The notes under the pieces were generated by a model. The model saw only the letters and a list, made by a program, of their open reading frames with translations. It searched no databases and was not told where the DNA came from. From Anaerolineaceae bacterium UBA1415 (lineage in GTDB: Bacteria; Chloroflexota; Anaerolineae; Anaerolineales; Anaerolineaceae), in the NCBI GenBank assembly GCA_002305635.1, contig DBPR01000029.1, forward strand, positions 53,281-117,280: DNA of 64,000 nucleotides. Reading direction: 5' to 3'. Numbering within the stretch: position 1 is the stretch's first letter; every line of letters begins with the position of its first letter. This document shows, in pieces, positions 5,503 through 57,908 of the stretch. The translations under genes were made by a program, and so were the position numbers.

Positions 5503-5919
5503 TTATTTGGATTGGCAACCAGGACAAATGCCGTAAAGCTGGAGCAAATGATCACGTACCTGAAAAGCAGTTTCAGCTTCAACGCGCTGAATCAGTTCGT
5601 CAATATCGTCAGAACCGGAAAATTCAAGCGCCTGATGGCACTGCTGACAGACGATGTGATGATGATGCCCTGCGGAGCTGATGACATAGCCCGGGTTGCG
5701 CTCGGGATCATAAACAATGGCAACAAGTTCAAGCTGAGCGAGCAGGTCGAGCGTTCGGTAGACGCTGACCAGCCCCAGATCGCAGCCCTGCGCCAGCAAT
5801 TGGGCGTGGATCTGCTGCGGGGTCAGGGGCAGCCCCGCGCCTGAGAGCAATTCCATGATGCGCACGCGCGGCTGCGTAACGCGATATCCATTTATTGAAA
5901 GAATTTCCTGCCAGCTCAT
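5503..5919 (-). CDS. zur: Fur-family transcriptional regulator, probably Zur
   Basis: Winged-helix N-terminus, HHHH-x-C-x2-C and C-x2-C metal sites (HHHHIVCQQC, CPGC). It heads the znu operon. I chose the start at 5919 (MSWQEIL) with AAGGAA 4 nt upstream. Confidence 0.8.
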   Translation of the reverse strand: MSWQEILSINGYRVTQPRVRIMELLSGAGLPLTPQQIHAQLLAQGCDLGLVSVYRTLDLLAQLELVAIVYDPERNPGYVISSAGHHHHIVCQQCHQALEFSGSDDIDELIQRVEAETAFQVRDHLLQLYGICPGCQSK

Positions 5920-6131: not shown

Positions 6132-7394
6132 TTACAACAAAGCCTCCACCTCAAAAGGCGAGCCTTCAAGATCAACTTCGATCACCCATGCGAGATCGTT
6201 ATCGGAGCAGAGAGTTTGGGGGAGACTGATCGCCCAATGCCCAAAGCCCTCCAGGTCTTTGCCAACCCGTAAAGGCAGTTCTTCTCCGCTCGCCAGCAAG
6301 CGCGCGGCAAGGGCAGGCGTGCGCATATGATAGAGCGAAAGCGTTTTACCGACCCAGCGCTCAGGGTTTAAAAGGTGGATATAGAGCTTGCCGGGTTTTT
6401 CCGTAAAATAGAGGCCGTCAAACTCAAAAACGTATTCCTGAGCGGGGCTGGTATCAAAAAGTGAAACCCCGTTCGCCTTCAGATGCTCGCCAAGCCGGTC
6501 AAGGATTCCTGCACTTGCTTCTGGAATGCTCCCATCCCCTCGCGGCCCGATATTAAGCAGAAGGTTGCCGCCCCGACTTACCGTTTTCATCAGTTTCTCC
6601 AAAACCAGGGCGGGCGAAGTCCAGTTCTGATCCGATGCCTTGTAGCCCCAGCTCGCGTTGAGCGTGACCGGAACTTCCCAGGGGGAAAGCAAGGCCTGAC
6701 GTGGGATGCGGTTGTCCGCCATGGTCAGATAATCGCCCAGGCCGTGCCCGATGCGTCCGTTGATGAGGCAATTCAGCTGCAGCTCCCGTACCAGGTTGAC
6801 CAGGCGCAGGCTTTGGGCGCGGCTCATTTCCATTGGCGTGTCAAACCAGAGCATGCCGATGGTGCCATAATTGCTGAGCAGTTCCCGAACCTGCGGCAGG
6901 CAGATTTGCTTGAAATAAGCCTCAAATGCTGCCGGATCGTTCGGGTGATAGGCGCGGTAACCGCCCGAGTGGTGCCAGTCCTGCGCCTGGGAGTAGTACA
7001 GGCAAAAGGTTAGCCCCTCCTGCTGGCAGGCCTGGGCCAGTTCGGCCACAAAATTACGCCCACAGGGGCTGGCGCTGACGTTGTTGAAGTCGCTGACCTT
7101 GGAATCAAAGAGCGCGAAGCCGTCGTGATGTTTGGCGGTGAAGCAGAGGTAGCGCATTCCCCATGCTTTGGCTTTACGAACGATCTCTTTTGCATCAAAA
7201 AACGTGGGATTAAATTGGCTGGCTAATTGGGCATAATCGTCGGGTGGTATTTCCAGATCGTTTTGGATCCATTCCGCCAATCCCGGGGTCTCCTGCCCTC
7301 GCCACTTGCCAGCCAGGAGCGAATAAAGCCCGAAATGAATGAACAAGCCATATTTGGCGTTTTTGAACCAGGTGAGTTTGTGCTCTTGTTCCAT
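6132..7394 (-). CDS. Alpha-L-fucosidase (GH29)
   Basis: 420-aa ORF with a KYGLFIHFGLYS N-terminal block and overall GH29-like layout. Confidence 0.8.
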   Translation of the reverse strand: MEQEHKLTWFKNAKYGLFIHFGLYSLLAGKWRGQETPGLAEWIQNDLEIPPDDYAQLASQFNPTFFDAKEIVRKAKAWGMRYLCFTAKHHDGFALFDSKVSDFNNVSASPCGRNFVAELAQACQQEGLTFCLYYSQAQDWHHSGGYRAYHPNDPAAFEAYFKQICLPQVRELLSNYGTIGMLWFDTPMEMSRAQSLRLVNLVRELQLNCLINGRIGHGLGDYLTMADNRIPRQALLSPWEVPVTLNASWGYKASDQNWTSPALVLEKLMKTVSRGGNLLLNIGPRGDGSIPEASAGILDRLGEHLKANGVSLFDTSPAQEYVFEFDGLYFTEKPGKLYIHLLNPERWVGKTLSLYHMRTPALAARLLASGEELPLRVGKDLEGFGHWAISLPQTLCSDNDLAWVIEVDLEGSPFEVEALL

Positions 7395-7412
7395 ATATTA
7401 ATCGTATCATAT

Positions 7413-7600
7413 TAAGCCTTCGCCCATTGGGAGAAGGTGCCCGAAGGGCGGACTGCTTGCGCTCTGGATACCAGAGTGAGGGGGTTGCCCGCAGGGCAAA
7501 CTGATTACTCTGAGTACAGGATGAAGGCCAAATATTGCCTTGTGGTTCTAAAGCCTTCTCCACGGGGAGAAGGGGAACCACGAAGTGGTGGATGAGGGGT
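7413..7600. repeat. Two copies of the AAGCCTTC-headed GC-rich REP-like element
   Basis: TAAGCCTTCGCCCATTGGGAGAAGGTGCCCGAAGGGCGG (7413-) and TAAAGCCTTCTCCACGGGGAGAAGGGG...GGATGAGGGGT (7549-7600). The same element recurs at 46514 and 46684. Confidence 0.55.
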
Positions 7601-38262: not shown

Positions 38263-39779
38263 ATGAAGATCGGAAACACATTTTCCTTTCGCTCTTATTG
38301 AGCCTGCTTGTAAAGATCCCGATCTCGCCTTTTTTCTATCCCTTTCCAGACCGTGATTCCGGCGTTTTTGCCTATATTGGGCGGCGCATCCTCAACGGCG
38401 ATCTGCCCTACCGTGATGTCTGGGATCATAAACCGCCGCTCATCTTCTACCTGAACGCTCTCGGTCTCAAAATCGCGCCCGATTCTTTATGGGGCATCTG
38501 GCTGCTTTCCGTTCTCCTTCTGGCGGTGGCGATTTTTTGCGGATTCAAACTGCTCTCAAAGCTTTTCAACAGCGAGATCGCGCTCGTTTCCACCGCGATC
38601 GCCATGGGCGGTATCCCGGTTTTGCTCGGGCTTGGCAACCTGACCACCGAGTACACCCTCCCACTGCAGTTCCTGTCCTTATTCCTGGTCTGGAAATTCT
38701 GGGATGAGGATGCGAAAGCCTCCTGGAAATACCTGTTGATTGGCGCATTGGGTGGGCTGGCTTTCCTTACCAAACAATCCGGCATTGGCATTTGGCTCTC
38801 CATCGGCCTTGTTTTGCTCGTTCAATCCTTTATTAAAGGCAAAAACCGCCTCTCGATCCTGAGATTGCTCTGGTTCGTGTCTGGCATTGCCATCGTGGTT
38901 GGGCTGGTCGCGCTTTATTTTTATCGCAACGGCGCTTTCGCGGCCTTTTGGGACCAGGCTTTTCTTTACAATTTTGTCTATGTAGGCAAAAACGAGCTTG
39001 GCTTGATCACCCGCTTTGTAAACCTGTTCACGATGCGGGAAATTGAGCCGATCGCCGTTTTCCACATGGGCATGATCGGCGCGATCCTGGCATTGGCAGG
39101 GTTTGTTTTGCGGAAAAGCGATCAGGCAAATAATAAGCAAAAAGATTTCTTTCTGCTCCTTCTGATCGACCTCTTACTCGAAGTCCTGCTGACGCAATTG
39201 CCAGACTTCACCTATGCCCATTATTATTTGACCCTTTTGCCTGCCCTCACGATCTTTGCAGGCTTAAGCCTTTCCGTTTTGTTGTCAGGACTGAAAAAAG
39301 CACCTCTACCTTTTTCACCCAAGGCTAAAAATCTCTTTTTGGCATTCTTGATCTTTTTTGCCAGCATTCCCTTGCTGACGGAATGGTATTACAGCCTGAA
39401 GGAACCGGATCAAAACTTCAACAAAGCGCTGGTCGAATTTATCCTGCAGGAAACCGAGCCGGATCAGACGGTGTTGATCTGGGGTGCGGAAACCGCCATC
39501 AACTTTTACACGGATCGAAGCAGCCCCAGCCGGTATGTCTATCAATACCCTCTGGTGCAGGAAAATTACGTAACCGAAGAAATGATCCTCGACTTCCTTA
39601 GCGAAATCGAGCGGAACAAACCCGAGCTGATCATCGACAGCGCCCGGGCGGATATGCCCTTTCTGCGTTTTCCCATTGAATCTGAGCGCATTAATGAACA
39701 GATCAACAAAATTTACTCCCAATACAAAGAGGCGGCGATCATTAACGGCTGGTGGGTCATTCAATTGGTGGAACCCTAA
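38244..39779 (+). CDS. GT-C fold glycosyltransferase (ArnT/PMT, GT39/GT83-like) membrane protein
   Basis: 511 aa with ~12 TM segments, an acidic first loop (PFPDRDSGVFAYIG) and a soluble C-terminal domain. It is a paralog of 56379-57908. Confidence 0.65.
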   Translation: MTATSAHEDRKHIFLSLLLSLLVKIPISPFFYPFPDRDSGVFAYIGRRILNGDLPYRDVWDHKPPLIFYLNALGLKIAPDSLWGIWLLSVLLLAVAIFCGFKLLSKLFNSEIALVSTAIAMGGIPVLLGLGNLTTEYTLPLQFLSLFLVWKFWDEDAKASWKYLLIGALGGLAFLTKQSGIGIWLSIGLVLLVQSFIKGKNRLSILRLLWFVSGIAIVVGLVALYFYRNGAFAAFWDQAFLYNFVYVGKNELGLITRFVNLFTMREIEPIAVFHMGMIGAILALAGFVLRKSDQANNKQKDFFLLLLIDLLLEVLLTQLPDFTYAHYYLTLLPALTIFAGLSLSVLLSGLKKAPLPFSPKAKNLFLAFLIFFASIPLLTEWYYSLKEPDQNFNKALVEFILQETEPDQTVLIWGAETAINFYTDRSSPSRYVYQYPLVQENYVTEEMILDFLSEIERNKPELIIDSARADMPFLRFPIESERINEQINKIYSQYKEAAIINGWWVIQLVEP

Positions 39780-46327: not shown

Positions 46328-46380
46328 ACCAACCGCCACCACCCTCTTCGCGCGTAAGTTGGATAGGACGGCCGTGGTAT

Positions 46381-46492
46381 AAACCCTTCTCACCCGCCCG
46401 TGGTACTTTCCCAGTATGGAAGGTCGGGTTGCGCTGCCTGCCCTTGGCTTATTTGCCAAGGGTCAACCCGACAAAATCTTAAGCCTTCTCAC
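46381..46492. repeat. Cluster of REP-like units
   Basis: AAACCCTTCTCACCCGCCCGTGGTACTTTCCCAG, then the AGGTCGGGTTG...CAACCCGAC long hairpin (46422-46472) with inner CCCTTGGC-ttattt-GCCAAGGG, then TAAGCCTTCTCACCTGCCCGG. Confidence 0.55.
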
Positions 46493-46840
46493 CTGCCCGG
46501 TAGGGTCGGTTTTTAAGCCTTCGCCCATGGGGAGAAGGTGCCCGCAGGGTGGATGAGGGGTAATCGAGAACCTGCCCGAAGGCCGGGTACTACCTAAAGC
46601 CTTCCCACCTGCCCGTGGTGCTTTCCCAGGGGGCGGGAGAAGGCCTGCCCTCTTTTAGAGAGGGTGCTCGGCAGGTCGGTCTTTAAGCCTTCGCCCATGG
46701 GGAGAAGGTGCCCGCAGGGCGGATGAGGGGTAATCGAGAACCTGCCCGAAGGCCGGGTACTACTAAAAGCCTTCCCACCTGCCCGTGGTGCTTTCCCAGG
46801 GGACTGGGAGAAGGCCTGCCCTCTTTGTAGAGAGGGTGCC
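46493..46840. repeat. Tandem direct repeat, two copies of ~170 bp
   Basis: TAAGCCTTCGCCCATGGGGAGAAGGTGCCCGCAGGG starts at 46514 and again at 46684. AAAGCCTTCCCACCTGCCCGTGGTGCTTTCCCAGG occurs at 46596 and 46766. Only a few substitutions and one 1-nt indel separate the copies. Confidence 0.8.
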
Positions 46841-47053
46841 CGAAGGCCGGACTGTTTACCCGATGTTACTAGGGTGAGGGGTGTTTCTTGCGCCCTGGAT
46901 TTCCAGGATGAAGGGAAACGAAACCATGTAAGATCAACCTTACACTCGCTTGTCAACCATGGCATTCTGCCCCTGACCCCACCCAATTTTTCATAAAAAC
47001 ATCCCCCATCCAAGAGTATAATTACCCACAACGCAATCCCCGTCAGGAGGACC

Positions 47054-50000
47054 ATGACCGCGCCGGAAATCATTCACAACCTCGTCACCAGCTTTCGCGA
47101 CCTGCGCGAACAATACACCTCTGTCCACTACAAAGAAACCCAACTGCGCAACGAATTTCTCAACCCCTTCTTCATCGCCCTCGGTTGGGATGTCTACAAC
47201 GAGCGCAACGTCGCCCTCCAATACCGCGACGTCATCCACGAAGACTCCCTCGAGATCGAAGGCAAAACCCGCGCGCCTGACTACGCCTTTTGCGTCGGCA
47301 GCTCCCGAAAATTCTTCGTCGAGGCAAAAAAGCCTTCTGCCCGCGTCAAAACCAACGGCGAAGCCGCCTATCAACTCCGCCGCTACGCCTGGAACACCAA
47401 ACTTCCCCTCTCCATCCTGACCGATTTCGAGCATTTCGCCGTCTACGACTGCCGCACTCGTCCCGACCCCAAAGACAGTGCCGCCGTCGGGCGCGTCAAG
47501 CTCTATAATTTTGAAGAATACCTCAGCCATTGGGACGAGATCGCCAGCATCTTCTCCCGGGAAGCGGTCTGGAAAGGGAAATTAGACGATTTCGCCGACG
47601 GCACCAAAGGCAAACGCTCCACCACCGAGGTGGACGCTGAATTCCTCAAGGATATCGAAGCCTGGCGCGATCTGCTGGCGCGCAATATCGCCCTGCGCAA
47701 CTTCCGTTCCAGCGAAGAGCTCGCCAACCTACCCCGTGCCGAACGCCAGCTCAACTATGCCGTACAGGCGACCATCGACCGCATCCTCTTTTTGCGCATC
47801 TGCGAAGACCGCGAAATTGAGCCGCCCGATCAGCTCCTTCAAAATGCGCAGCAGCCTGATGTCTACGCCAACCTGCTCACCCTCTTTAAGCACGCCGATC
47901 AGAAATATAATTCCGGGCTCTTCCATTTTTCGGAAGAAAAAAGCCAGACCAGCGCGCCCGATACCTTTACCCCCACCTTGCAGATTGACGATAAGGTACT
48001 GCGTCAGATCATCGAAAGCCTTTATGGCCCCAGCTCCTATATCTTCAAAGAGATCCCGGTCGAGATCCTTGGGCAAATATACGAGCAATTCCTGGGCAAG
48101 GTCATCCGCCTGACGCCCAAAGGCATCGCCAAGGTCGAAGAAAAGCCCGAAGTCCGCAAAGCCGGCGGCGTCTACTACACCCCCAGCTACATCGTCGATT
48201 ACATCGTCCACAACACCCTCAGCCCTCTCCTTAATCCAAACCAGCCTTCCCAAGATGGTAAAAAAGTGGGCTTCGAAAACCAACCACCATCTAGGACGAG
48301 AGCTGTGGAAGCGCCAAACTCTACCCCTTCCAGGGAAAGGGAATTAAAGGGGTTGGGTCTTGAAAAACATCCTTCGAAAACTACGCTGAAGAGTGGGTCT
48401 TTCGATCTGTCATCGCGAGACCCGCAGGGTCGTGGCGATCTGCCTTTCCAATCTTCTTCAGATCAACAAAAAGTACAGGAACCAATGGGCTCAAACGACC
48501 AAACCTTGACCAGGTCGAAGCCTGCGGAATCGTCCAGCCAAACCCCCTCCAGGGAGGGGGGCAGGGGGGTGGGTCTTGAAAACAAACCGACCACACAAAC
48601 CATCTCCAGCGAAGCGACGGAAGCCGTAGGTCGGGTTGCGCTTGTCAACCCGACATCCACATCCCTAACCCCCGACCAGGCCCTCAAACTCCGTGTCGTC
48701 GATCCCGCCTGCGGCTCCGGCTCCTTCCTCCTGGGTGCCTACCAATACCTCCTCGACTGGCACCTCAACTACTACCTCACCCACGACCCCGAAAGCCACA
48801 TCCGCGGCAAAAACCCACCCATCGTCGCCACCGAAGGCGGTGAATATCGCCTCACCACCGAAGAAAAGAAGCGCATCCTCACCGCCAGCATCTACGGCGT
48901 CGATATCGACGCCCAGGCGGTCGAGGTCACCAAGCTCTCCCTCCTGCTCAAACTGCTCGAGGGCGAAACCGGTCAGCTCACCCTTGGTTTCGACCGCGTC
49001 CTGCCCGACCTCGGCAACAACATCCGCTGCGGCAACTCCCTCATCGGCTGGGACTATTTTGCCAGCCAGCTTTTGCCCGACGAAGAAGAGATCATCCGCG
49101 TCAACCCCTTCGACTGGCAGCGCTCCTTCCCCGAAGTCTTCGCCCAGGGCGGCTTCGACGCCGTCATCGGCAACCCGCCCTACGTCCGCCAGGAAGATCT
49201 CGGCGCCGACAAACGCTATTACCAGAGCCTCTACGAGGTCTACACAGGCACTGCCGACCTCTACAGCTATTTCATCGAGCGCGGCATCAAACTGCTGGCA
49301 CCCAACGGCAATTTTAGCTACATCGTCGCCAACAAGTGGATGCGCGCCAATTACGGTCGTCCCCTGCGTGAATGGCTCAAAAAGCAGTGTATCGATGAGA
49401 TCACTGACTTTGGCGACCTGCGTGTTTTCACCAGCGCCACCACCTACCCATGCATCCTGCGCGTCAGCAACCGCGAACCGCACAACCGACCCTGGGTGAC
49501 CACCGTCAAAACGCTTGACTTCCCCTCACTGCAGGAATACGTTGATCAAAACGGCTCAGTTGCCGACCAAACCCGCTTTGAGGATGGCGGTTGGTCGCTG
49601 GCAGGCATCGAGACCCAAAGACTGATGGAAAAGATCCGCCAAAACTCCATCCCACTGGGTGAATATGTTAAGGGCAAAATTTATCGGGGAGCAGTTACTG
49701 GTCTAAATGAAGTCTTCATCATTGACCAGTCCACCCGAGATCATCTCATTGCTGAAGATCCTAAAAGCGCTGAACTGATCAAGTCGTGTTTGTTGGGGAA
49801 AGACATTAAACGCTACGGCATTGATTACCAAAATCTTTACATGATATTCACCAGACGCGGCACCAATATTAAAGATTATCCTGCGATTCACGACTACTTA
49901 CTCAAATTTAAGGATAAATTAATGCCACGACCAAAAAAATGGGCTGGCAAAGATTGGAAAGGGCGGAAACCTGGTCCCTACCAATGGTTTGAAATTCAAG

Positions 50001-50446
50001 ATTCAATTGCCTATTACGAAGAATTTGAAAAGCCAAAAATTATTTGGGGTAATCTGGCACAGAAACCTAAATTTACCATGGATACAGATGGATACTATAT
50101 CAATGCTCCAGGGGTTATTATTCCAGTCGAAGATTACTATCTTCTGGGAATAATGAATTCTTCATTGTTTTACACATTTATTAGTGAAGTGGCAGCTGGT
50201 AGACGAGGAGGATTCTTCGAGTACAAACCCATCTATGTTTCCCAAATGCCGATTCATATCATAGATTGGGATAATATTGCTGAAGTTGAGATGGTAAACC
50301 AACTTCGTCAACTGGTAATTAGAAGGCTTGAATTAGGAAAACGCAATGCTCAAACCCCAGGGCAAGTAATGATGTTAGAAAACGAAATTGAAATTATCGA
50401 GACACATATAGACTCTGTCGTTATGACACTTTACAATCTCAAATAA
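47054..50446 (+). CDS. Type IIG restriction-modification fusion: PD-(D/E)xK nuclease, gamma-class N6-adenine methyltransferase and TaqI_C/Eco57I-like recognition region
   Basis: APDYAF...FFVEAKKP (D...ExK), YYTPSYIVDYIV, DPACGSGSFLL (motif I), GNPPYV (motif IV), YRGAVTGLNEVFII and a C-terminal ...IDSVVMTLYNL. The RBS CAGGAGG lies 4 nt upstream of the ATG. Confidence 0.85.
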   Translation: MTAPEIIHNLVTSFRDLREQYTSVHYKETQLRNEFLNPFFIALGWDVYNERNVALQYRDVIHEDSLEIEGKTRAPDYAFCVGSSRKFFVEAKKPSARVKTNGEAAYQLRRYAWNTKLPLSILTDFEHFAVYDCRTRPDPKDSAAVGRVKLYNFEEYLSHWDEIASIFSREAVWKGKLDDFADGTKGKRSTTEVDAEFLKDIEAWRDLLARNIALRNFRSSEELANLPRAERQLNYAVQATIDRILFLRICEDREIEPPDQLLQNAQQPDVYANLLTLFKHADQKYNSGLFHFSEEKSQTSAPDTFTPTLQIDDKVLRQIIESLYGPSSYIFKEIPVEILGQIYEQFLGKVIRLTPKGIAKVEEKPEVRKAGGVYYTPSYIVDYIVHNTLSPLLNPNQPSQDGKKVGFENQPPSRTRAVEAPNSTPSRERELKGLGLEKHPSKTTLKSGSFDLSSRDPQGRGDLPFQSSSDQQKVQEPMGSNDQTLTRSKPAESSSQTPSREGGRGVGLENKPTTQTISSEATEAVGRVALVNPTSTSLTPDQALKLRVVDPACGSGSFLLGAYQYLLDWHLNYYLTHDPESHIRGKNPPIVATEGGEYRLTTEEKKRILTASIYGVDIDAQAVEVTKLSLLLKLLEGETGQLTLGFDRVLPDLGNNIRCGNSLIGWDYFASQLLPDEEEIIRVNPFDWQRSFPEVFAQGGFDAVIGNPPYVRQEDLGADKRYYQSLYEVYTGTADLYSYFIERGIKLLAPNGNFSYIVANKWMRANYGRPLREWLKKQCIDEITDFGDLRVFTSATTYPCILRVSNREPHNRPWVTTVKTLDFPSLQEYVDQNGSVADQTRFEDGGWSLAGIETQRLMEKIRQNSIPLGEYVKGKIYRGAVTGLNEVFIIDQSTRDHLIAEDPKSAELIKSCLLGKDIKRYGIDYQNLYMIFTRRGTNIKDYPAIHDYLLKFKDKLMPRPKKWAGKDWKGRKPGPYQWFEIQDSIAYYEEFEKPKIIWGNLAQKPKFTMDTDGYYINAPGVIIPVEDYYLLGIMNSSLFYTFISEVAAGRRGGFFEYKPIYVSQMPIHIIDWDNIAEVEMVNQLRQLVIRRLELGKRNAQTPGQVMMLENEIEIIETHIDSVVMTLYNLK
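48240..48660 (+). repeat. In-frame block of intergenic-type repeat elements inside the RM gene
   Basis: GTAGGTCGGGTTGcgcttgtCAACCCGAC at 48626-48654. Two ~45-nt units lie at 48324-48369 and 48543-48586, each ending GGGTCTTGAAAA. More TGGGYCTT-type copies lie at ~48265 and ~48393. The block translates as a low-complexity S/T/P/G/Q-rich stretch. Confidence 0.7.
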
Positions 50447-50464
50447 GACATACTTAGGAGTACG

Positions 50465-53400
50465 ATGGTTCAAATTGGAAAAATCGATTTCCCAGAAACG
50501 TTATTAAAAAGCCTCGAGAATAATGAACTCGTCGTTTTTGCTGGTGCAGGTGTTTCAATGGGACCTCCTTCAAATCTACCGAATTTTAATGGATTGGCTC
50601 AGGATATAGGTAAGAGTGTAGGTCATGAATTTAATGAAAAGAAAGAAGCTGCAGACTTGTTTTTGGGAAGGCTTGAAGATCAGGGAATAGATGTAAAAGA
50701 ATTTGCAAAGAAAGAATTAAATAAAGCGATGAGCTTTAACCCATTACATTCAGCCATTATTTCCCTTTATGATAAGTCACAAAATCTAAGGATTGTCACG
50801 ACAAATTTTGATGATCTTTTCGAACAAGCATTTCTTTCAAAACCTGAAAAAAAAGTAAACACATATTGTTCTCCAGTATTGCCTTTAGGGCATGATTTTG
50901 AAGGTCTTGTGCATCTCCATGGTAGTGTAACAAATACTAAGAGCATGATTCTAACCGATCGAGATTTCGGTAAGGCTTATCTAACAGATGGTTGGGCATT
51001 GCGATTCTTGATACCCTTATTTCAAAAATTTTCAGTTTTATTCATTGGCTATAGCTATAACGATGTTGTTATGAAGTATCTGGCACGAGCGTTACCTCCT
51101 GAATTGACAGAAAAAAGATATATCTTAAGTACTGAAAAAAGAGACGACCATTGGCGGCGATTAAGGCTGACCCCAATTTACTATTCAGGAAGAAACAAAC
51201 ATTCTGCACTAATCTCTTCATTATCAGAGATGGCGGATAGGCAGAATAGAACTTTACTAGATTGGAAATCTAGAATTACTGATTTATGCTCAAAGGGTTT
51301 GCCGAAAGAAAAAGCAAAACTTGATGAACTTGAACAGATATTTCTAGATACTAATAGGACAAAGTTGTTTATTCAGATAGCCAGAGGATTTAGTTGGGTT
51401 CCTTGGTTAATTGAAAAAAAATTTCTTGATCCATTCACTAAACCGAATCTTGATGGATGGGCTAGATGGTTTGCTTCAATATTCATTGAGAACCAGGAAA
51501 AAATAATCTCTTTATTTATTAATAGACAGCATATGGATAGACTGTTTTGGTCATCATTAATTTATGAGGTTAATGACCTTGATTTAGAAAAATGTCGACA
51601 GATTGATTTTTCAAGGATGATTTCTTTTTTGCTCAGAACAAAGCCGATTCCCTCGAATTTGTCCCTTTATTACATAATCGCACAAAAATGCTATGAATTT
51701 GGTGATTTTGAATCATTGTTAGATGTTTTTGAAACATATGTCAGTGAATACGAAGTCTTAATCACAAAATCACTTTGGAGGGAAAGTGATACATTTGAAG
51801 TGGTAGCTGATGAACACGGAAATGAAGTGGTATATATGTTTTATCAATTTATTGAGCCTAATTTATCTTTTGCACCAGAGAGATTGTTGAATCTAGCAAT
51901 GCGAACCTTGAGAAAAATGAACAGGCTCGAAATGATATGGTCTGATTCAATTTCACAACTCAACTCTTCAAGTATGAGATTTCACAGTCTCCTCAAAGAT
52001 GTTGATAGAAATGAATATGGCACAGATTTCATACAAGTTGCTATCATTTCTGCGAGAAAAGCTCTTCTAGAAATAATGTCAAGAGATTCCGTTTTATGGC
52101 GGTTTTATACTGGTCAAGCTATACGAGACAAATGTAATCTAATTGCAAGGATTGGTTTAGATGCTTTAATTAACTCAGACTTAGTCGATAGTTCTTATAT
52201 TATTTCCGAGTTTCTTAAGATTCAACATCCTTTAGCTTGGGATATGCGACCAGAAGTATACGAATTACTTTTCACAAATTTTAAAAGTAGTAATGATGAA
52301 TTAAAAGTTTTGGTTTTAGAAAAAATAAATAAATCGATTAATGAAATGGAATGGAATTCTGATTTTAAAACAAAGCAATTAGTTAGCTGGTGTAATTTCT
52401 TCTATGAATTAGATCCCAACAACAAAATTCTAAGGATGAAAAAAGATTTGCTACAAGCAAAGTATCCTGAGGTTAAACCAAAAATAATTGGAAAAAGAAT
52501 AATTGAAGTAAGTGGAATTAAAGACCCAGACCCTTCATTTTGGTCACCAGATGAATTGATAAATATGACGACAGATGCAGAATTCGAAAAGATTCTAAAT
52601 AAAATAAAAACATTCCAGTTGTCGACAGACATTGGCTCCTCCTATATTGCCATACAACGAGCAGTTGAGAAGGATCAGGGTTGGGCGTTTTTATTTGCTG
52701 ATTATCTCGTCAAAATAGAATGTTTTAGTAATACTGTTTGGAGCCGTATATTTTTGGGGCTTCAAAAAGTTCACTTGAACGAACAAGAGAAAGAATTCAT
52801 AATAAATCTCAGTAAAATCAAGGAGATCATTCATTCTTTTCAATATTATTATTTAGAATTGCTAGAAAATCAACTAAATACTTCAGAAGACCTGTTCAAC
52901 AATACTGATATTAATGAAGTAATTACTCTCGTTGAAAAAATGTTATCTTCAAAAAATCTTGAAGTCATGGTTAGTGAAAAGTCCAGTATTCTAATGAAAT
53001 CTTGTAACAGTAATATTGGAATGATTTCATTAATTCTCATCAAATGTGTTGATATTCTGAATAAAAGAAATATCTGCAGAGGGTGCCTTGATAAAGGTTT
53101 GGAGATAATATCCGAATTAGCTAATTCATCAGAATTTGGGGATTTTGCGAGACCAATGATCTTCACCCAATTTACCTTTTTTATGACTTCTTTTCAAAAT
53201 TTTGCCATCCGAGAACTTGTCCCATTCCTGACAAACAGAAAAAATGATTATTATATTCAAGCTTGGAATGGTTTCCTAAATGGGGATAATAATCCAGCAA
53301 GCTACATCGAACATTTTAAACCCATAATGATTAAAGCTGCTCAAAGAGTTGAGCACTTGGAAGAAAGCGACCGACAATTATTCTTACAACTGTGTGCTCA

Positions 53401-53905
53401 TGTTGCAGTAAATGAGAGAAATCCAATAACCTCAATTGTTTTTCCTGTTTTTAAAGTGGTACCGTCAAAATACTTGCACTATTTTTCTAGAACCATTGGG
53501 CAAGTAATAAATACCGCAGATTCTGATTTAATCGATTCTTTATGGAATAATTTTCTTTCTGACTTTCTCGAAAAGAGAATCAATAATGCCCCTGTGGAAA
53601 CTACAGACAAAGAAACCAAAGAGATCTCAAAGTGGCTTATTAAATTAGGGAAATACTATCCTGAAGCGGTAGATTGTTTCATAAAATTCAAACCTGCAGA
53701 TTTGAGTAAATCCAACCTAATTTATAGATTAGAAAATTCTGAAATAACTGATTTATACCCATTGGCGACAAAAAAACTATTGTCATACTTAAATAAGTGT
53801 AAAATTGATTCTTGGAATAAGCAATACATACAAAAAGTTGTGGAACGTCTGAAAGTCCATCTGGATAAAACCGATATAGAAATGTTAGAAATTGAAATGA
53901 CATAA
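50465..53905 (+). CDS. SIR2-family (SIR2_2-like) NAD-utilising domain fused to a ~900-aa uncharacterised helical region; DSR-like defence candidate
   Basis: VVFAGAGVSMGPPSNLP, VTTNFDDLFE, LVHLHGS and LFIGYSYNDVVM in the first ~230 aa. I recognise no motif in the rest. The RBS TAGGAG precedes the start, which is 18 nt after the RM stop. The gene is strongly AT-rich. Confidence 0.8.
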   Translation: MVQIGKIDFPETLLKSLENNELVVFAGAGVSMGPPSNLPNFNGLAQDIGKSVGHEFNEKKEAADLFLGRLEDQGIDVKEFAKKELNKAMSFNPLHSAIISLYDKSQNLRIVTTNFDDLFEQAFLSKPEKKVNTYCSPVLPLGHDFEGLVHLHGSVTNTKSMILTDRDFGKAYLTDGWALRFLIPLFQKFSVLFIGYSYNDVVMKYLARALPPELTEKRYILSTEKRDDHWRRLRLTPIYYSGRNKHSALISSLSEMADRQNRTLLDWKSRITDLCSKGLPKEKAKLDELEQIFLDTNRTKLFIQIARGFSWVPWLIEKKFLDPFTKPNLDGWARWFASIFIENQEKIISLFINRQHMDRLFWSSLIYEVNDLDLEKCRQIDFSRMISFLLRTKPIPSNLSLYYIIAQKCYEFGDFESLLDVFETYVSEYEVLITKSLWRESDTFEVVADEHGNEVVYMFYQFIEPNLSFAPERLLNLAMRTLRKMNRLEMIWSDSISQLNSSSMRFHSLLKDVDRNEYGTDFIQVAIISARKALLEIMSRDSVLWRFYTGQAIRDKCNLIARIGLDALINSDLVDSSYIISEFLKIQHPLAWDMRPEVYELLFTNFKSSNDELKVLVLEKINKSINEMEWNSDFKTKQLVSWCNFFYELDPNNKILRMKKDLLQAKYPEVKPKIIGKRIIEVSGIKDPDPSFWSPDELINMTTDAEFEKILNKIKTFQLSTDIGSSYIAIQRAVEKDQGWAFLFADYLVKIECFSNTVWSRIFLGLQKVHLNEQEKEFIINLSKIKEIIHSFQYYYLELLENQLNTSEDLFNNTDINEVITLVEKMLSSKNLEVMVSEKSSILMKSCNSNIGMISLILIKCVDILNKRNICRGCLDKGLEIISELANSSEFGDFARPMIFTQFTFFMTSFQNFAIRELVPFLTNRKNDYYIQAWNGFLNGDNNPASYIEHFKPIMIKAAQRVEHLEESDRQLFLQLCAHVAVNERNPITSIVFPVFKVVPSKYLHYFSRTIGQVINTADSDLIDSLWNNFLSDFLEKRINNAPVETTDKETKEISKWLIKLGKYYPEAVDCFIKFKPADLSKSNLIYRLENSEITDLYPLATKKLLSYLNKCKIDSWNKQYIQKVVERLKVHLDKTDIEMLEIEMT

Positions 53906-56378: not shown

Positions 56379-57908
56379 ATGACAAGATCTGACAGCAAAA
56401 ACAGTCCCTGGTTTGCCATTCTGGCGCTTCTTTTCAGCCTGATCGTAAAACTTCCGATCGCGCCAAATTTTTATCCATATCCTGGGCGGGATTCAGGGGT
56501 TTTTGCCTATATTGGCTGGCGCATCCTCGAGGGCGAGCTGCCCTATGTCAATGTATGGGATCACAAGCCGCCCCTCGTTTTCTATATCAACGCGCTTGGT
56601 CTGAAAATGACCAACCTCTCCTTCTGGGGTGTCTGGATCATAGGAGTGATCTCGCTGGCCATCGCGGCATATTTCAGCCTGAAGCTGCTCTCAAGACTTT
56701 ACAAACCAAGCATTGCTGTCGCTGTTACCGTGGTTTGGTTGGCGTGTCTGCCGATCCTCTACGGGATCGGCAATTTGACCACCGAATACACCCTCCCACT
56801 TCAGTTTGCCAGCCTGTACGCTGCCTATCTGTGGCTGAGTGATGTTAAGAGACCCTTTTGGAAGTTCTTCCTGATCGGGGTTCTGGGCGGGATGGGGTTC
56901 ATGACCAAACAATCGAGCATTGGCGTTTGGGTCGCGATCGGCATGGCACTGGTGGCGCTGTTCTTCCATAAACCCGCGCGCAAAGACACTACGAAAAAAA
57001 TCCTTGGCATGGTCGCCGGGGTTTTCTTTTTCTGCGCATTGGTGGTTCTTTATTTTTACCTTGAAGATGGACTTAAGGCGTTTTTGAATCAGGCTTTCGC
57101 TTATAACTTTAAATATATCAGCCGTAGTAACGTGAGTGTTGTGCGACGGCTTATGAATCTGATCGACATGCGGGAAATGAAAACCATAACCGTATTTCAT
57201 CTTGGCGTAGTAGGAGGGTTTGCAGCATTGGCGCGCGTGTTCGGCAATAAAAAGGGAAAGGCTTTTGCGCCTGAGACCTTGTTCTATGGCCTGGTTGTGT
57301 TCGATCTTGTCCTGGAAGTGCTGTTAACGCACCTGCCCGATAACACCTATAAACACTATTACATGACCATGCTGCCATCTTTATCGATATTAACTGGCTT
57401 CCTGGCGTCAAGTTTGATCGATTCTCTGAACCATGATCTTGCAGGCAACAGAAAATGGTTGGAAAAGGCGTTTCTGTGCATGATGGCAGCTTTTGCCTGT
57501 ATTCCATTGTTATGGAAATGGTATGACAGTTTGCATGGTGTTACTCCAACCGTTAATGAAGGTGTGATCGAATTTGTTCAGTCCGAAACTGAACCGGAGG
57601 ATACGGTCTTGATCTGGGGTGCAGAAACGATGATAAATTATTACACCCAACGTGAGGCGCCAACCCGATACGTTTATCAGTATCCATTAATTCATGGCGA
57701 TTACGTAAACAAAGAGATGATCCTTGAGTTTCTAAATGACATTCAGGGAAAAGAACCCAAGTTTATTATCGACTCCAACAGACATGATATGCCCTTTATG
57801 ACCTTCCCGTTCAGCAATGAAGATATTGAGGAAGGGATCAACTGGATCACTGAAGAATATGAGCTGGTTGAGGATATCGAGGGTTGGATCGTTTATCAGA
57901 AGAAGTAG
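56379..57908 (+). CDS. GT-C fold glycosyltransferase (ArnT/PMT-like), paralog of 38244-39779
   Basis: Shares DSGVFAYIG, VWDHKPPL, GNLTTEYTLPLQF, TVLIWGAET and RYVYQYPL blocks with the other copy. Confidence 0.65.
   Translation: MTRSDSKNSPWFAILALLFSLIVKLPIAPNFYPYPGRDSGVFAYIGWRILEGELPYVNVWDHKPPLVFYINALGLKMTNLSFWGVWIIGVISLAIAAYFSLKLLSRLYKPSIAVAVTVVWLACLPILYGIGNLTTEYTLPLQFASLYAAYLWLSDVKRPFWKFFLIGVLGGMGFMTKQSSIGVWVAIGMALVALFFHKPARKDTTKKILGMVAGVFFFCALVVLYFYLEDGLKAFLNQAFAYNFKYISRSNVSVVRRLMNLIDMREMKTITVFHLGVVGGFAALARVFGNKKGKAFAPETLFYGLVVFDLVLEVLLTHLPDNTYKHYYMTMLPSLSILTGFLASSLIDSLNHDLAGNRKWLEKAFLCMMAAFACIPLLWKWYDSLHGVTPTVNEGVIEFVQSETEPEDTVLIWGAETMINYYTQREAPTRYVYQYPLIHGDYVNKEMILEFLNDIQGKEPKFIIDSNRHDMPFMTFPFSNEDIEEGINWITEEYELVEDIEGWIVYQKK

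What the first reader, a model, noticed from the sequence alone, without database searches (positions are those of the whole stretch)
48240..48660. About 140 codons of intergenic-type repeat elements inserted in frame between conserved methyltransferase motifs
The segment lies between YYTPSYIVDYIV and AdoMet motif I (DPACGSGSFLL), which in related gamma-class enzymes I recall as being separated by a short linker. Here it is a ~420-nt stretch built from elements also seen in non-coding DNA in this window. One is a GTAGGTCGGGTTG...CAACCCGAC hairpin (48626-48654; compare 46422-46472). There are two ~45-nt CCCYTCCAGGGA...GGGTCTTGAAAA units and further TGGGYCTT-type copies. The reading frame stays open throughout and encodes a low-complexity S/T/P/G/Q/E-rich loop. 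This recalls the Rickettsia palindromic elements that insert in frame into genes. It would be notable for a defence enzyme, either as a tolerated disordered loop or as a way to modulate or inactivate the methyltransferase.
Basis: seen in the sequence. Interest (0 to 1): 0.7.

Follow-up and report, generated by a model that had tools for sequence, protein, structure and literature searches.

The report
REP-type repeats inside a restriction-enzyme gene
A restriction-modification enzyme gene from an uncultured Anaerolineaceae bacterium carries 144 in-frame codons built from small hairpin repeats that otherwise sit only between genes; this is a large, fast-changing example of a known phenomenon and most likely forms a harmless floppy loop.

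Summary
ORF 47054-50446 encodes a 1130-aa Type IIG-like enzyme (nuclease, gamma-class N6A methyltransferase, TaqI-type TRD).

- **Insert size.** In about 85 of 120 homologues, motif X (YYTP) to motif I (DPACGSGSF) spans 43 aa. Here it spans 185 aa. The insert is 48233-48664, or 144 codons.
- **What it is made of.** It is a mosaic of at least three small palindromic repeat families. One (48626-48655) is a GTAG-headed REP. A related MAG has the same REP flanking a REP-associated tyrosine transposase.
- **Where else the repeats occur.** In about 770 kb of related DNA, every other copy of families A and B (about 100) is intergenic. The only long ORF carrying them is this gene.
- **Allele variation.** Eight alleles carry different module sets at this loop (63-299 codons between fixed anchors). 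All are in frame and stop-free, while their flanks are 94-100% identical with no gaps. The REP is read in two different frames.
- **Structure.** AlphaFold predicts residues 401-536 as disordered, between confidently folded elements.
- **Recurrence.** More distant homologues, including Brocadia, carry other repeats at the same loop.

Best reading: a permissive loop colonised by REP/BIME-type selfish repeats, then reshaped by duplication and deletion, with the enzyme kept intact. Intragenic REPs are already known, so this is an unusually large, hypervariable variant.

The parts
47054..50446 (+). Host gene: a 1130-aa Type IIG-like restriction-modification enzyme. It has an N-terminal PD-(D/E)xK nuclease, a gamma-class N6-adenine methyltransferase and a TaqI-type TRD.
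   Evidence: Pfam hits: HSDR_N 4.3e-8, Eco57I 4.8e-47, N6_Mtase, MmeI_Mtase and TaqI_C 3.4e-15. D76/E90/K92, DPACGSGSF and NPPY 707-710 are invariant across 97 homologues. Foldseek matches CamA, BseCI, PglX/BrxX, MmeI and BpuSI.
48173..48208 (+). Motif X helix (YYTPSYIVDYIV), the left anchor of the loop.
   Evidence: The AF2 helix 378-393 has pLDDT about 95.
48233..48664 (+). The in-frame insert, N394-S537 (144 codons). It is a mosaic of small palindromic repeats.
   Evidence: Canonical spacing is 43 aa against 185 aa here. Residues 401-536 have pLDDT below 50 and no secondary structure. The gene frame has 0 stops; the other two forward frames have 5 each. The insert gives 36 hits to intergenic DNA against 0-1 for controls.
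48267..48366 (+). First copy of the internal direct repeat of about 100 nt.
   Evidence: blastn against itself: 48267-48366 versus 48486-48582, 68% identity, E 6e-7.
48323..48366 (+). Module D, copy 1 (CCCCTTCCAGGGAAAGGG..AAAGGGGTTGGGTCTTGAAAA).
   Evidence: Matches intergenic copies at L001 9712-9740, L125 80-117 and L061 3575-3610. Family alignment.
48395..48453 (+). Module B, short variant (GGGTCTTTCGATCTGTCATCGCGAGACCCGCAGGGTCGTGGCGATCTGCCTTTCC). It encodes SGSFDLSSRDPQGRGDLPF.
   Evidence: Matches intergenic L007 9033-9115 (E 2e-8), L071 1700-1778 and L104 850-898. In metagenome contigs, 71 of 72 copies are not inside any long ORF; the one exception lies in an orthologue of this same gene. 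The inner stem shows compensatory variants.
48486..48582 (+). Second copy of the internal direct repeat. It contains module D copy 2 (48534-48582), which includes the palindrome CCCCCTCCAGGGAGGGGG.
   Evidence: Intergenic matches at L125 80-120, L061 3570-3610 and L058 7564-7601.
48626..48655 (+). Module A, a GTAG-headed REP: GTAG, a 9-bp stem GTCGGGTTG/CAACCCGAC and a 7-nt loop. Here it is read as AVGRVALVNPT.
   Evidence: ssDNA fold z = -4.1. More than 118 exact-pattern stretches occur in genome collections. It flanks a RAYT gene in a related MAG. In L001 the same element is read in another frame, as SGRSGCAFQPDN.
48701..48727 (+). AdoMet motif I (DPACGSGSF), the right anchor of the loop.
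   Evidence: The AF2 strand 548-550 has pLDDT about 96.
46421..46473 (+). Intergenic copy of the module-A palindrome. It is a long-loop variant with a nested hairpin, and its head reads GAAG instead of GTAG.
   Evidence: The 15-nt arm is identical to 48628-48642. ssDNA fold -18.5 kcal/mol, z = -6.1. The same long-loop variant, with a GTAG head, occurs in L058, L099 and L118.

Best explanation
The loop between the motif X helix and the motif I strand of this Type IIG enzyme has been colonised by REP/BIME-type selfish palindromic repeats. These repeats live in the intergenic DNA of this Anaerolineaceae lineage. At least one family (module A) is a canonical GTAG-headed REP of the kind mobilised by a REP-associated tyrosine transposase (RAYT).

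Once seeded, the cluster has been remodelled quickly. The likely routes are further insertion or nesting of modules, tandem duplication or unequal crossing-over of in-frame units, and deletion. Selection on the enzyme lets through only variants that keep the reading frame and lack stop codons.

The product is a long, S/T/P/G/Q-rich, disordered surface loop that the fold tolerates. The enzyme most likely remains active.

What is shown:
- it is an insertion;
- the modules are of intergenic type, and a RAYT is associated with the REP in a related MAG;
- allele-to-allele turnover is rapid while the frame is preserved;
- the loop is predicted to be disordered.

What is inferred:
- the mechanism of arrival (RAYT-mediated transposition versus recombination with intergenic copies);
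- neutrality of the loop;
- retained enzyme activity.
For: 1. **It is an insertion.** The spacing is 43 aa in about 85 of 120 homologues and 185 aa here. In the solved relative CamA the corresponding linker is about 10 aa.
2. **The modules are intergenic repeats.** blastn of the inserts finds copies of modules A, B, C and D in intergenic DNA of related contigs, with E down to 1e-19. In a census of 355 kb (crude coding fraction 86%), all copies outside this gene are intergenic or lie in spurious ORFs of about 100 aa. The insert gives 36 hits against 0-1 for control segments. Of 72 metagenomic copies of module B, the only one inside a long ORF is in another allele of this same gene.
3. **Module A is a REP.** It has a GTAG head and a palindrome. 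It is dispersed in many genomes. In MAG JBMNVH01, which also carries orthologue P0031, two inverted copies flank a 171-aa ORF. That ORF scores 161.5 bits on NCBIfam REP_Tyr_transpos (cutoff 80) and 4.9e-15 on Pfam Y1_Tnp. RAYT homologues lie next to the same REP in five other loci.
4. **The unit is DNA, not peptide.** Module A is read in two frames, AVGRVALVNPT in the window and SGRSGCAFQPDN in L001. The third frame would contain the TAG of the GTAG head.
5. **Rapid turnover under frame selection.** Seven fetched alleles have 189-897 nt between fixed anchors, all multiples of 3. The gene frame has 0 stops, while other frames typically have several (0-11 per frame). The flanks have no gaps and are 94-100% identical within about 150 nt upstream and about 400 nt downstream. 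L002 has a 174-nt (58-codon) unit repeated 3-4 times.
6. **Tolerated loop.** In the AF2 model residues 401-536 have pLDDT 25-32 and no secondary structure, while the flanking elements have pLDDT about 95. The catalytic motifs are intact.
7. **Recurrence.** About 33 of 120 homologues have inserts at this loop, with different genome-specific modules (VIASEAKQS type, PLSKGGKGV type). These include Brocadiales enzymes only about 50% identical to this one.
8. **Precedent.** Intragenic GTAG REPs, including one in an O. terrae N-6 DNA methylase, are reported in PMC3733652.
Against: - No RAYT gene lies in the 64-kb window, and the rest of the source genome was not available. The REP-RAYT link therefore rests on a related MAG.
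- Modules B and D lack a GTAG tag, so their mobilisation mechanism is unknown.
- All in-gene copies have one orientation. This fits descent from a few events plus internal duplication better than many independent transpositions.
- The restriction to a single gene is not explained by loop tolerance alone, because other proteins also have permissive loops.
- Gene calls in the censuses were crude (longest-ORF heuristic). Many loci were fetched because they contain module A or B, so copy numbers per genome are not estimates.
- Short-read assemblies may misjudge the number of tandem modules.
- Nothing here measures expression or activity.
Confidence: 0.75

Rival explanations
1. Adaptive hypervariable loop or recombination module. 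The REP cluster is maintained because it benefits the defence enzyme. It might vary a surface that phage anti-restriction proteins bind, tune activity, or act as a hotspot for recombination (or RAYT nicking) that shuffles the nuclease half against the methyltransferase/TRD half.
For: - The loop differs between alleles whose flanks are 94-100% identical.
- The frame is always preserved.
- The same loop is used in several lineages, and a second hotspot exists.
- It is the only intragenic site among about 100 copies of modules A and B.
- The gene is a recombinant mosaic. There are two N-terminal allele groups (about 98% versus about 90% identity to the window) joined to one near-identical methyltransferase core, and the TRDs are swapped.
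Against: - The module content simply mirrors whatever repeats the host genome has.
- The REP is read in different frames, so no peptide is conserved.
- The region is predicted to be fully disordered.
- The change in identity begins about 150 nt upstream of the insert, not in it.
- The TRD breakpoints lie 400-1500 nt downstream of the insert.
- No functional data exist.
Confidence: 0.12
2. Reverse direction. The block is an old lineage-specific low-complexity linker that evolves by slippage, and the intergenic look-alikes are fragments derived from this gene.
For: - Internal direct repeats and a 174-nt tandem unit show that slippage or unequal crossing-over acts here.
- Many look-alike copies lie in the intergenic region just upstream of the gene.
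Against: - Module A occurs in many phyla that lack this gene, and it flanks RAYT genes.
- Intergenic copies occur in both orientations on many unlinked contigs, without adjacent coding sequence.
- Most homologues have no linker.
- Nested variants (C inside D, long-loop A) exist in the same form in intergenic DNA.
Confidence: 0.04
3. Artefact or dead gene. The block is an assembly chimera, or the gene is an inactivated pseudogene in which the repeats accumulate freely.
For: Repeats are prone to misassembly in short-read metagenomes. One database protein (P0121) is a truncated fragment of this gene.
Against: - Eight alleles from independent assemblies and samples carry a repeat block at the same position.
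- One allele (P0016) recurs identically on 5 contigs.
- All blocks are multiples of 3 with no stop in frame, while other frames typically contain several stops.
- All catalytic motifs are intact.
Confidence: 0.04

Closest known systems
Intragenic GTAG-/CGTC-tagged REPs ('REP-decorated proteins'; Di Nocera, De Gregorio & Rocco 2013, PMC3733652)
   Same: - Small GTAG-headed palindromes that are normally extragenic, and are associated with RAYTs, are found in frame inside genes that stay open.
- They are often found in proteins that act on DNA.
- One listed case is an O. terrae N-6 DNA methylase.
   Different: - Reported inserts mostly encode 20-30 aa, and clusters encode 43-82 aa. Here the insert is 144 aa, and up to about 280 aa in an orthologue.
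- Here at least three repeat families are combined and nested.
- The content differs between nearly identical alleles.
- In the DNA sampled, this is the only gene hit. In O. terrae and R. conorii many genes are hit.
Rickettsia palindromic elements (RPE; Ogata et al. 2000, from my own knowledge; also discussed in PMC3733652)
   Same: Selfish palindromic repeats inserted in frame into protein-coding genes. They add a peptide segment that the fold tolerates, at surface positions.
   Different: - RPE-1 is a single element of about 100-150 bp spread over many unrelated genes in a reduced intracellular genome.
- Here the modules are 30-65 nt, several families form a mosaic, they are confined to one gene, and the host is a free-living Chloroflexota lineage.
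- No sequence similarity to RPEs was tested.
REP/BIME clusters and REPIN-RAYT systems (Nunvar 2010, PMC2817692; Bertels & Rainey, PMC3337134)
   Same: - Module A has the GTAG head and an imperfect palindrome.
- It is dispersed in intergenic DNA.
- It flanks a single-copy RAYT gene in inverted orientation.
- Clusters of several palindromes resemble BIMEs.
   Different: - BIMEs are extragenic by definition, with alternating REP orientation. Here the cluster is translated and all modules point the same way.
- Modules B and D carry no GTAG tag.
Type IIG/IIL restriction-modification enzymes (MmeI 5hr4, BpuSI 3s1s) and CamA/TaqI-type methyltransferases
   Same: The host protein has the same domain order and motifs.
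   Different: The solved relative examined (CamA) has only a short linker of about 10 aa between motif X and motif I, and the canonical family spacing is 43 aa, motifs included.

Membership tests
GTAG-tagged REP (module A, 48626-48655) | A conserved 5' GTAG tetranucleotide directly followed by an imperfect palindrome of about 20-40 nt | tested here: met
   GTAG at 48626-48629, a 9-bp stem and a 7-nt loop. ssDNA fold -10.2 kcal/mol, z = -4.1.
GTAG-tagged REP (module A, 48626-48655) | Many dispersed copies per genome, predominantly extragenic | tested here: met
In Anaerolineaceae DNA, 28 of the 32 copies lie outside the Type IIG gene, and all 28 are intergenic or in spurious short ORFs. Within the window itself only 2 copies are visible. 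The source genome beyond the window was not available.
GTAG-tagged REP (module A, 48626-48655) | A cognate REP-associated tyrosine transposase (RAYT) gene flanked by the REPs | tested here: met
   L106 5764-6279(-) scores 161.5 bits on NF047646 REP_Tyr_transpos (cutoff 80). It is flanked by inverted copies at 5706-5735 and 6356-6386. This is in a related MAG; none was found in the window.
REP super-families (modules B, C and D) | A GTAG or CGTC tag at one end of the palindrome | tested here: inconclusive
   B and D have no tag in the family alignments. C has CGTC directly before its stem (GCGTCCTGGG...CCCAGG), but only 7 copies were aligned. All three are palindromic, dispersed and intergenic.
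Rickettsia palindromic elements (RPE) | In-frame insertion into protein-coding genes with the ORF kept open | tested here: met
Rickettsia palindromic elements (RPE) | One element family scattered over many unrelated genes of the genome | tested here: not met
   Among about 100 copies of modules A and B in about 770 kb, the only long ORF hit is this Type IIG gene.
Rickettsia palindromic elements (RPE) | Sequence relationship to the RPE-1 to RPE-10 consensus sequences | not tested
   No RPE sequences were at hand. The host is Chloroflexota, not Rickettsia.
Type IIG restriction-modification enzyme (host gene) | A single polypeptide with a PD-(D/E)xK nuclease, a gamma-class N6A methyltransferase (motifs X, I, IV NPPY) and a TRD | tested here: met
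   Pfam HSDR_N, Eco57I, N6_Mtase and TaqI_C. Invariant D76/E90/K92, D550-F558 and N707-Y710. Structural matches to MmeI and BpuSI.
Type IIG restriction-modification enzyme (host gene) | Demonstrated cleavage and methylation activity | not testable with these tools
   Needs expression and a methylome or restriction assay.
Phase-variable R-M genes (simple-sequence-repeat switches) | Repeat units whose copy-number changes shift the reading frame on and off | tested here: not met
   The inserts in all seven fetched alleles are multiples of 3 in length. The tandem unit is 174 nt, and the internal repeat spacing is 216-219 nt.
Intein or mobile intron | A Hint/LAGLIDADG domain or an intron RNA structure in the insert | tested here: not met
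   No such Pfam domain. No Rfam match. The insert is predicted to be unstructured.

The most novel reading that the evidence does not exclude
The motif X-motif I loop of this Type IIG family is a true, recurrent intragenic landing pad for REP-type elements, and the only one in these genomes. Its REP cluster is not just tolerated but used. Nicking by the RAYT, or recombination between repeat copies, would make it a built-in diversification joint. Such a joint would quickly vary an exposed loop, perhaps helping escape from phage anti-restriction proteins, and would promote shuffling of the nuclease and methyltransferase/TRD halves between alleles in a defence island.
Probability: 0.1. Interest if true: 0.8.

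Novelty: new variant of a known kind. Interest (0 to 1): 0.55.

Why it matters
REPs are abundant in bacteria, yet how they spread is still poorly understood, and they are extragenic almost by definition. This locus offers a natural series of near-identical alleles that differ by whole REP-type modules at one site, in frame. It therefore records recent gain, nesting, duplication and loss of such elements under a simple selective filter.

It also shows that a well-studied enzyme fold tolerates up to about 280 disordered residues between motif X and motif I. That is useful for engineering Type IIG and CamA-like methyltransferases.

It is also a caution for annotation. Low-complexity loops in MAG proteins can be translated selfish DNA.

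If the loop proved to be functional in defence, it would be a new way of diversifying a restriction enzyme.

Tried and rejected
- **Peptide search with the 144-aa insert.** It returned only P0121, a truncated fragment of the same gene. It did not even recover the known alleles, so it says nothing about in-frame copies in other proteins.
- **Folding the whole insert as RNA.** z = -1.3, not significant. Only the individual hairpins, especially module A, stand out. Modules B and D on their own are not significantly more stable than shuffles.
- **Rfam and terminator scans.** No RNA family matched, and there is no terminator-like site on the + strand inside the insert. An internal attenuator or riboswitch reading was dropped.
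- **First attempt at scoring intragenic copies.** It used stop-to-stop open frames and was misleading in GC-rich genomes. It was replaced by a longest-ORF gene heuristic restricted to Anaerolineaceae and to module B in metagenomes.
- **Recombination junction exactly at the insert.** The identity profile places the change about 150 nt upstream of the insert and the TRD breakpoints well downstream. This is kept only as a low-probability reading.
- **Checks in other lineages.** In a more distant Anaerolineae-type allele (L126) only one weak intergenic look-alike was found. In Brocadia (L127) the three in-gene copies had no intergenic copy within the 23-kb locus. The generalisation to other lineages therefore rests mainly on the peptide motifs.
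- **Readings rejected.** Intein, intron and phase-variation readings were rejected (see the membership tests). A diversity-generating retroelement reading was considered but not tested: no search was made for a reverse-transcriptase gene or a template-repeat/variable-repeat pair.
Full report
**1. The observation**

The ORF 47054-50446 (+) is open for 1130 codons. Pfam finds HSDR_N (N-terminal PD-(D/E)xK nuclease), Eco57I, N6_Mtase, MmeI_Mtase and TaqI_C. The protein is therefore a single-chain Type IIG-like restriction-modification enzyme.

YYTPSYIVDYIV (motif X, 48173-48208) and DPACGSGSF (motif I, 48701-48727) are 185 residues apart, counting both motifs. Among the 120 best homologues from the protein collection, the same span is 43 residues in about 85 and longer in about 33. 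Against the canonical ...NTVGKLL-EGK-TPEQA..., the extra block is N394-S537. That is nt 48233-48664, or 144 codons.

GTAG lies at 48626-48629, with stems at 48630-38 and 48646-54. Folded as ssDNA it has z = -4.1. It shares its arms with intergenic 46421-46473.

The two CCCYTCCAGGGA...GGGTCTTGAAAA units (48323-48366 and 48534-48582) are part of an internal direct repeat of about 100 nt at 68% identity. Inside the window only the hairpin has an intergenic twin.

**2. What the insert is made of**

I fetched six further distinct alleles of the same gene from independent assemblies (L001, L002, L003/L004, L005, L006, L007). An eighth allele turned up later (L162). They lie in similar gene neighbourhoods: each has a Mg-chelatase gene, and most a VWA gene, a few kb downstream.

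I ran blastn with each insert against everything else, with the inserts masked. Four recurring modules appeared, and each also occurs in intergenic DNA:
- **Module A:** GTAGGTCGGGTTGCG..CAACCCGACA.
- **Module B:** TGTCATCGCGAGG..GGCGATCTGCCTTT.
- **Module C:** GACTGCTTGCGTCCTGGG..CCCAGG.
- **Module D:** CCCCCTCC..GGAGGGGG..AAGGGGGTGGGTCTT.

The window's insert contains, in order, D, B, D and A. Module C was not detected in it.

Family alignments show compensatory changes in the inner stem of B. They also show C nested in the loop of D, both in the gene and in intergenic DNA. Module A likewise exists with short and long (nested) loops in both settings.

As a control, the 432-nt insert gives 36 hits (E<0.01) outside the Type IIG genes in 355 kb of Anaerolineaceae DNA. 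Five equal-length pieces of the same gene give 0, 0, 1, 0 and 0.

**3. Module A is a REP in the strict sense**

I scanned one genome per species for GTAGGTCGGG-N5-35-TCAACCCGACA. Hits came from Anaerolineaceae MAGs, from Rhodanobacteraceae (dozens per genome), and from Zixibacteria, Sulfurovum, Calditrichota and others.

In MAG JBMNVH01, which also carries orthologue P0031 (L002 and L020 are the same contig), two inverted copies flank a 171-aa ORF. The copies are at L106 5706-5735 (+) and 6356-6386 (-). The ORF scores 161.5 bits on NCBIfam REP_Tyr_transpos (cutoff 80) and 4.9e-15 on Pfam Y1_Tnp.

RAYT homologues lie next to the same REP in five other loci from other phyla. No RAYT lies in the window itself.

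**4. These elements avoid genes, except this one**

In 355 kb of Anaerolineaceae DNA, with a crude coding fraction of 86%, I found 32 A, 20 B, 13 C and 17 D copies. Every copy outside the Type IIG loop is intergenic or sits in a spurious ORF of about 100 aa.

A metagenome scan for module B found 72 copies in 416 kb. Of these, 64 are intergenic, 3 lie at ORF edges and 4 lie in ORFs of 91-142 aa. Only one lies inside a long ORF. That ORF is yet another allele of this same gene.

In-gene copies all point the same way. Intergenic copies point both ways.

**5. Fast turnover under selection for the frame**

Between fixed anchors, the seven fetched alleles have 189, 210, 363, 402, 480, 492 and 897 nt.
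- All of these lengths are multiples of 3.
- All have 0 stops in the gene frame, while the other frames typically contain several stops (0-11 per frame).

The coding flanks align without a single gap. They are 94-100% identical for about 150 nt upstream and about 400 nt downstream of the insert.

L002 carries a 174-nt (58-codon) unit 3-4 times.

Module A is read as AVGRVALVNPT in the window and as SGRSGCAFQPDN in L001. These are the two frames that avoid the TAG within GTAG. The conserved unit is therefore the DNA element, not a peptide.

**6. Structural setting**

An AlphaFold2 model built from 97 homologues has mean pLDDT 78.7 and pTM 0.70. Residues 401-536 have pLDDT 25-32 and no secondary structure. 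They lie between helix 378-393 and strand 548-550, both at pLDDT about 95.

The model matches CamA, BseCI, PglX/BrxX, MmeI, BpuSI and TaqI. In CamA the corresponding linker is about 10 residues.

The nuclease motif (D76, E90, K92), motif I and NPPY are invariant across the family and intact here.

There is no terminator-like site on the + strand and no Rfam family in the insert.

**7. Recurrence**

More distant homologues (about 55-67% identity) carry other modules at the same loop. They also carry them at a second site, after ARNIALRN (about residues 216-226 here). These modules include VIASEAKQS-type and EGGRGV-type peptides typical of translated hairpin repeats.

Brocadiales enzymes carry a CCCCCTT..AAAGGGGG..AAGGGGGTTGT element once in the main loop. 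They carry it again as an inverted pair at a third site.

Support from intergenic copies in those lineages is weak within the little DNA I had.

**8. Interpretation**

The best-supported reading is passive colonisation of a permissive loop by REP/BIME-type selfish repeats. Local duplication, nesting and deletion then reshaped the cluster, and selection kept an intact enzyme.

How the modules arrived is inferred, not shown. It could have been RAYT-mediated insertion next to an existing REP, or recombination with intergenic copies. The single orientation of the in-gene copies suggests few founding events.

Why this gene alone is hit remains unexplained.

The rival readings are scored separately:
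- an adaptive variable loop or recombination joint;
- the reverse direction, in which intergenic copies derive from the gene;
- an assembly artefact or a dead gene.

**9. Relation to what is known**

Intragenic REPs are documented by Di Nocera et al. 2013 (PMC3733652).
- Most encode 20-30 aa, and clusters encode 43-82 aa.
- Many lie in DNA repair or replication genes.
- One lies in an O. terrae N-6 DNA methylase.
- That paper classes Rickettsia RPE-4/6 with the CGTC-tagged REPs.

The present case is of the same kind. It differs in four ways:
- its size: 144 aa here, and up to about 280 aa in P0031;
- its mosaic of several families;
- hypervariability between near-identical alleles;
- its confinement to one recurrent loop of one gene.

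I found no report of this for Type IIG enzymes in the searchable library.

**10. Limits**

- Gene calling in the censuses was heuristic.
- Many loci were selected because they contain module A or B.
- The source genome beyond the 64 kb was not available.
- Tandem module numbers in short-read assemblies may be wrong.
- Nothing here measures expression or activity.

Noticed in passing
window 46330-46860 (also 7412-7458): The intergenic region upstream of the Type IIG gene is packed with other hairpin repeats. It includes a 134-nt unit duplicated at 170-nt spacing (46504-46637 and 46674-46807, 96% identity). A related 41-nt copy lies at 7412-7452. These are different families from those in the insert.
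   Followed up: partly
window 50465-53905; L001-L007 downstream of the gene: The gene directly downstream encodes a 1146-aa SIR2_2-domain protein. In the other alleles' loci the downstream genes are instead SAVED plus SMODS (CBASS-like), an SMC/AAA-type protein, or unknown ORFs. This looks like a defence island with exchangeable cassettes next to a Mg-chelatase gene.
   Followed up: partly
window 49100-50446: The C-terminal specificity region is swapped between alleles. Identity to the window drops from 97-100% to 31-59%, with different breakpoints: about 49100-49200 in L002, L003 and L007, about 49700 in L006, and about 50200 in L005. The N-terminal half falls into two allele groups (about 98% and about 90%). 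The gene is a recombinant mosaic.
   Followed up: partly
L106 5706-6386 (JBMNVH010000001.1): A complete 'REPtron': a 171-aa RAYT gene flanked by inverted module-A REPs, in the same MAG as orthologue P0031.
   Followed up: yes
L008-L125 (genome-contig hits): The same REP sequence (GTAGGTCGGGTTG..CAACCCGACA) occurs in very distant phyla. Examples are Rhodanobacteraceae with dozens per genome, Zixibacteria, Sulfurovum, Calditrichota and Thermodesulfobacteriota. In several cases it lies next to RAYTs only 29-37% identical to the Anaerolineaceae one. This could reflect horizontal spread of REP-RAYT pairs or convergence on one hairpin.
   Followed up: no
homologues P0008-P0025, P0057 (window residues about 216-226): There is a second insertion hotspot after ARNIALRN in more distant homologues. 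It is filled with VIASEAKQS-type modules of up to 139 aa. The window allele has only a short FRSSEELANLP there.
   Followed up: partly
L127 11691-11770 and 11156-11284 (Brocadia sapporoensis allele): Three copies of a CCCCCTT..AAAGGGGG..AAGGGGGTTGT element lie inside the Brocadia homologue. One is in the main loop. The other two form an inverted pair at a third site, after core position 523.
   Followed up: partly
P0121 (107 aa, Logan assemblies): This is a fragment of the same gene. It follows the loop up to DPACG and then continues with unrelated sequence (EYVIIMPKEK...). It may be an allele disrupted just after motif I, or a chimeric contig.
   Followed up: no
window 38290-39511 versus 56425-57646: Two regions 18,135 nt apart share about 70% identity over several stretches (280, 102 and 45 nt). 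They are probably paralogous genes.
   Followed up: no
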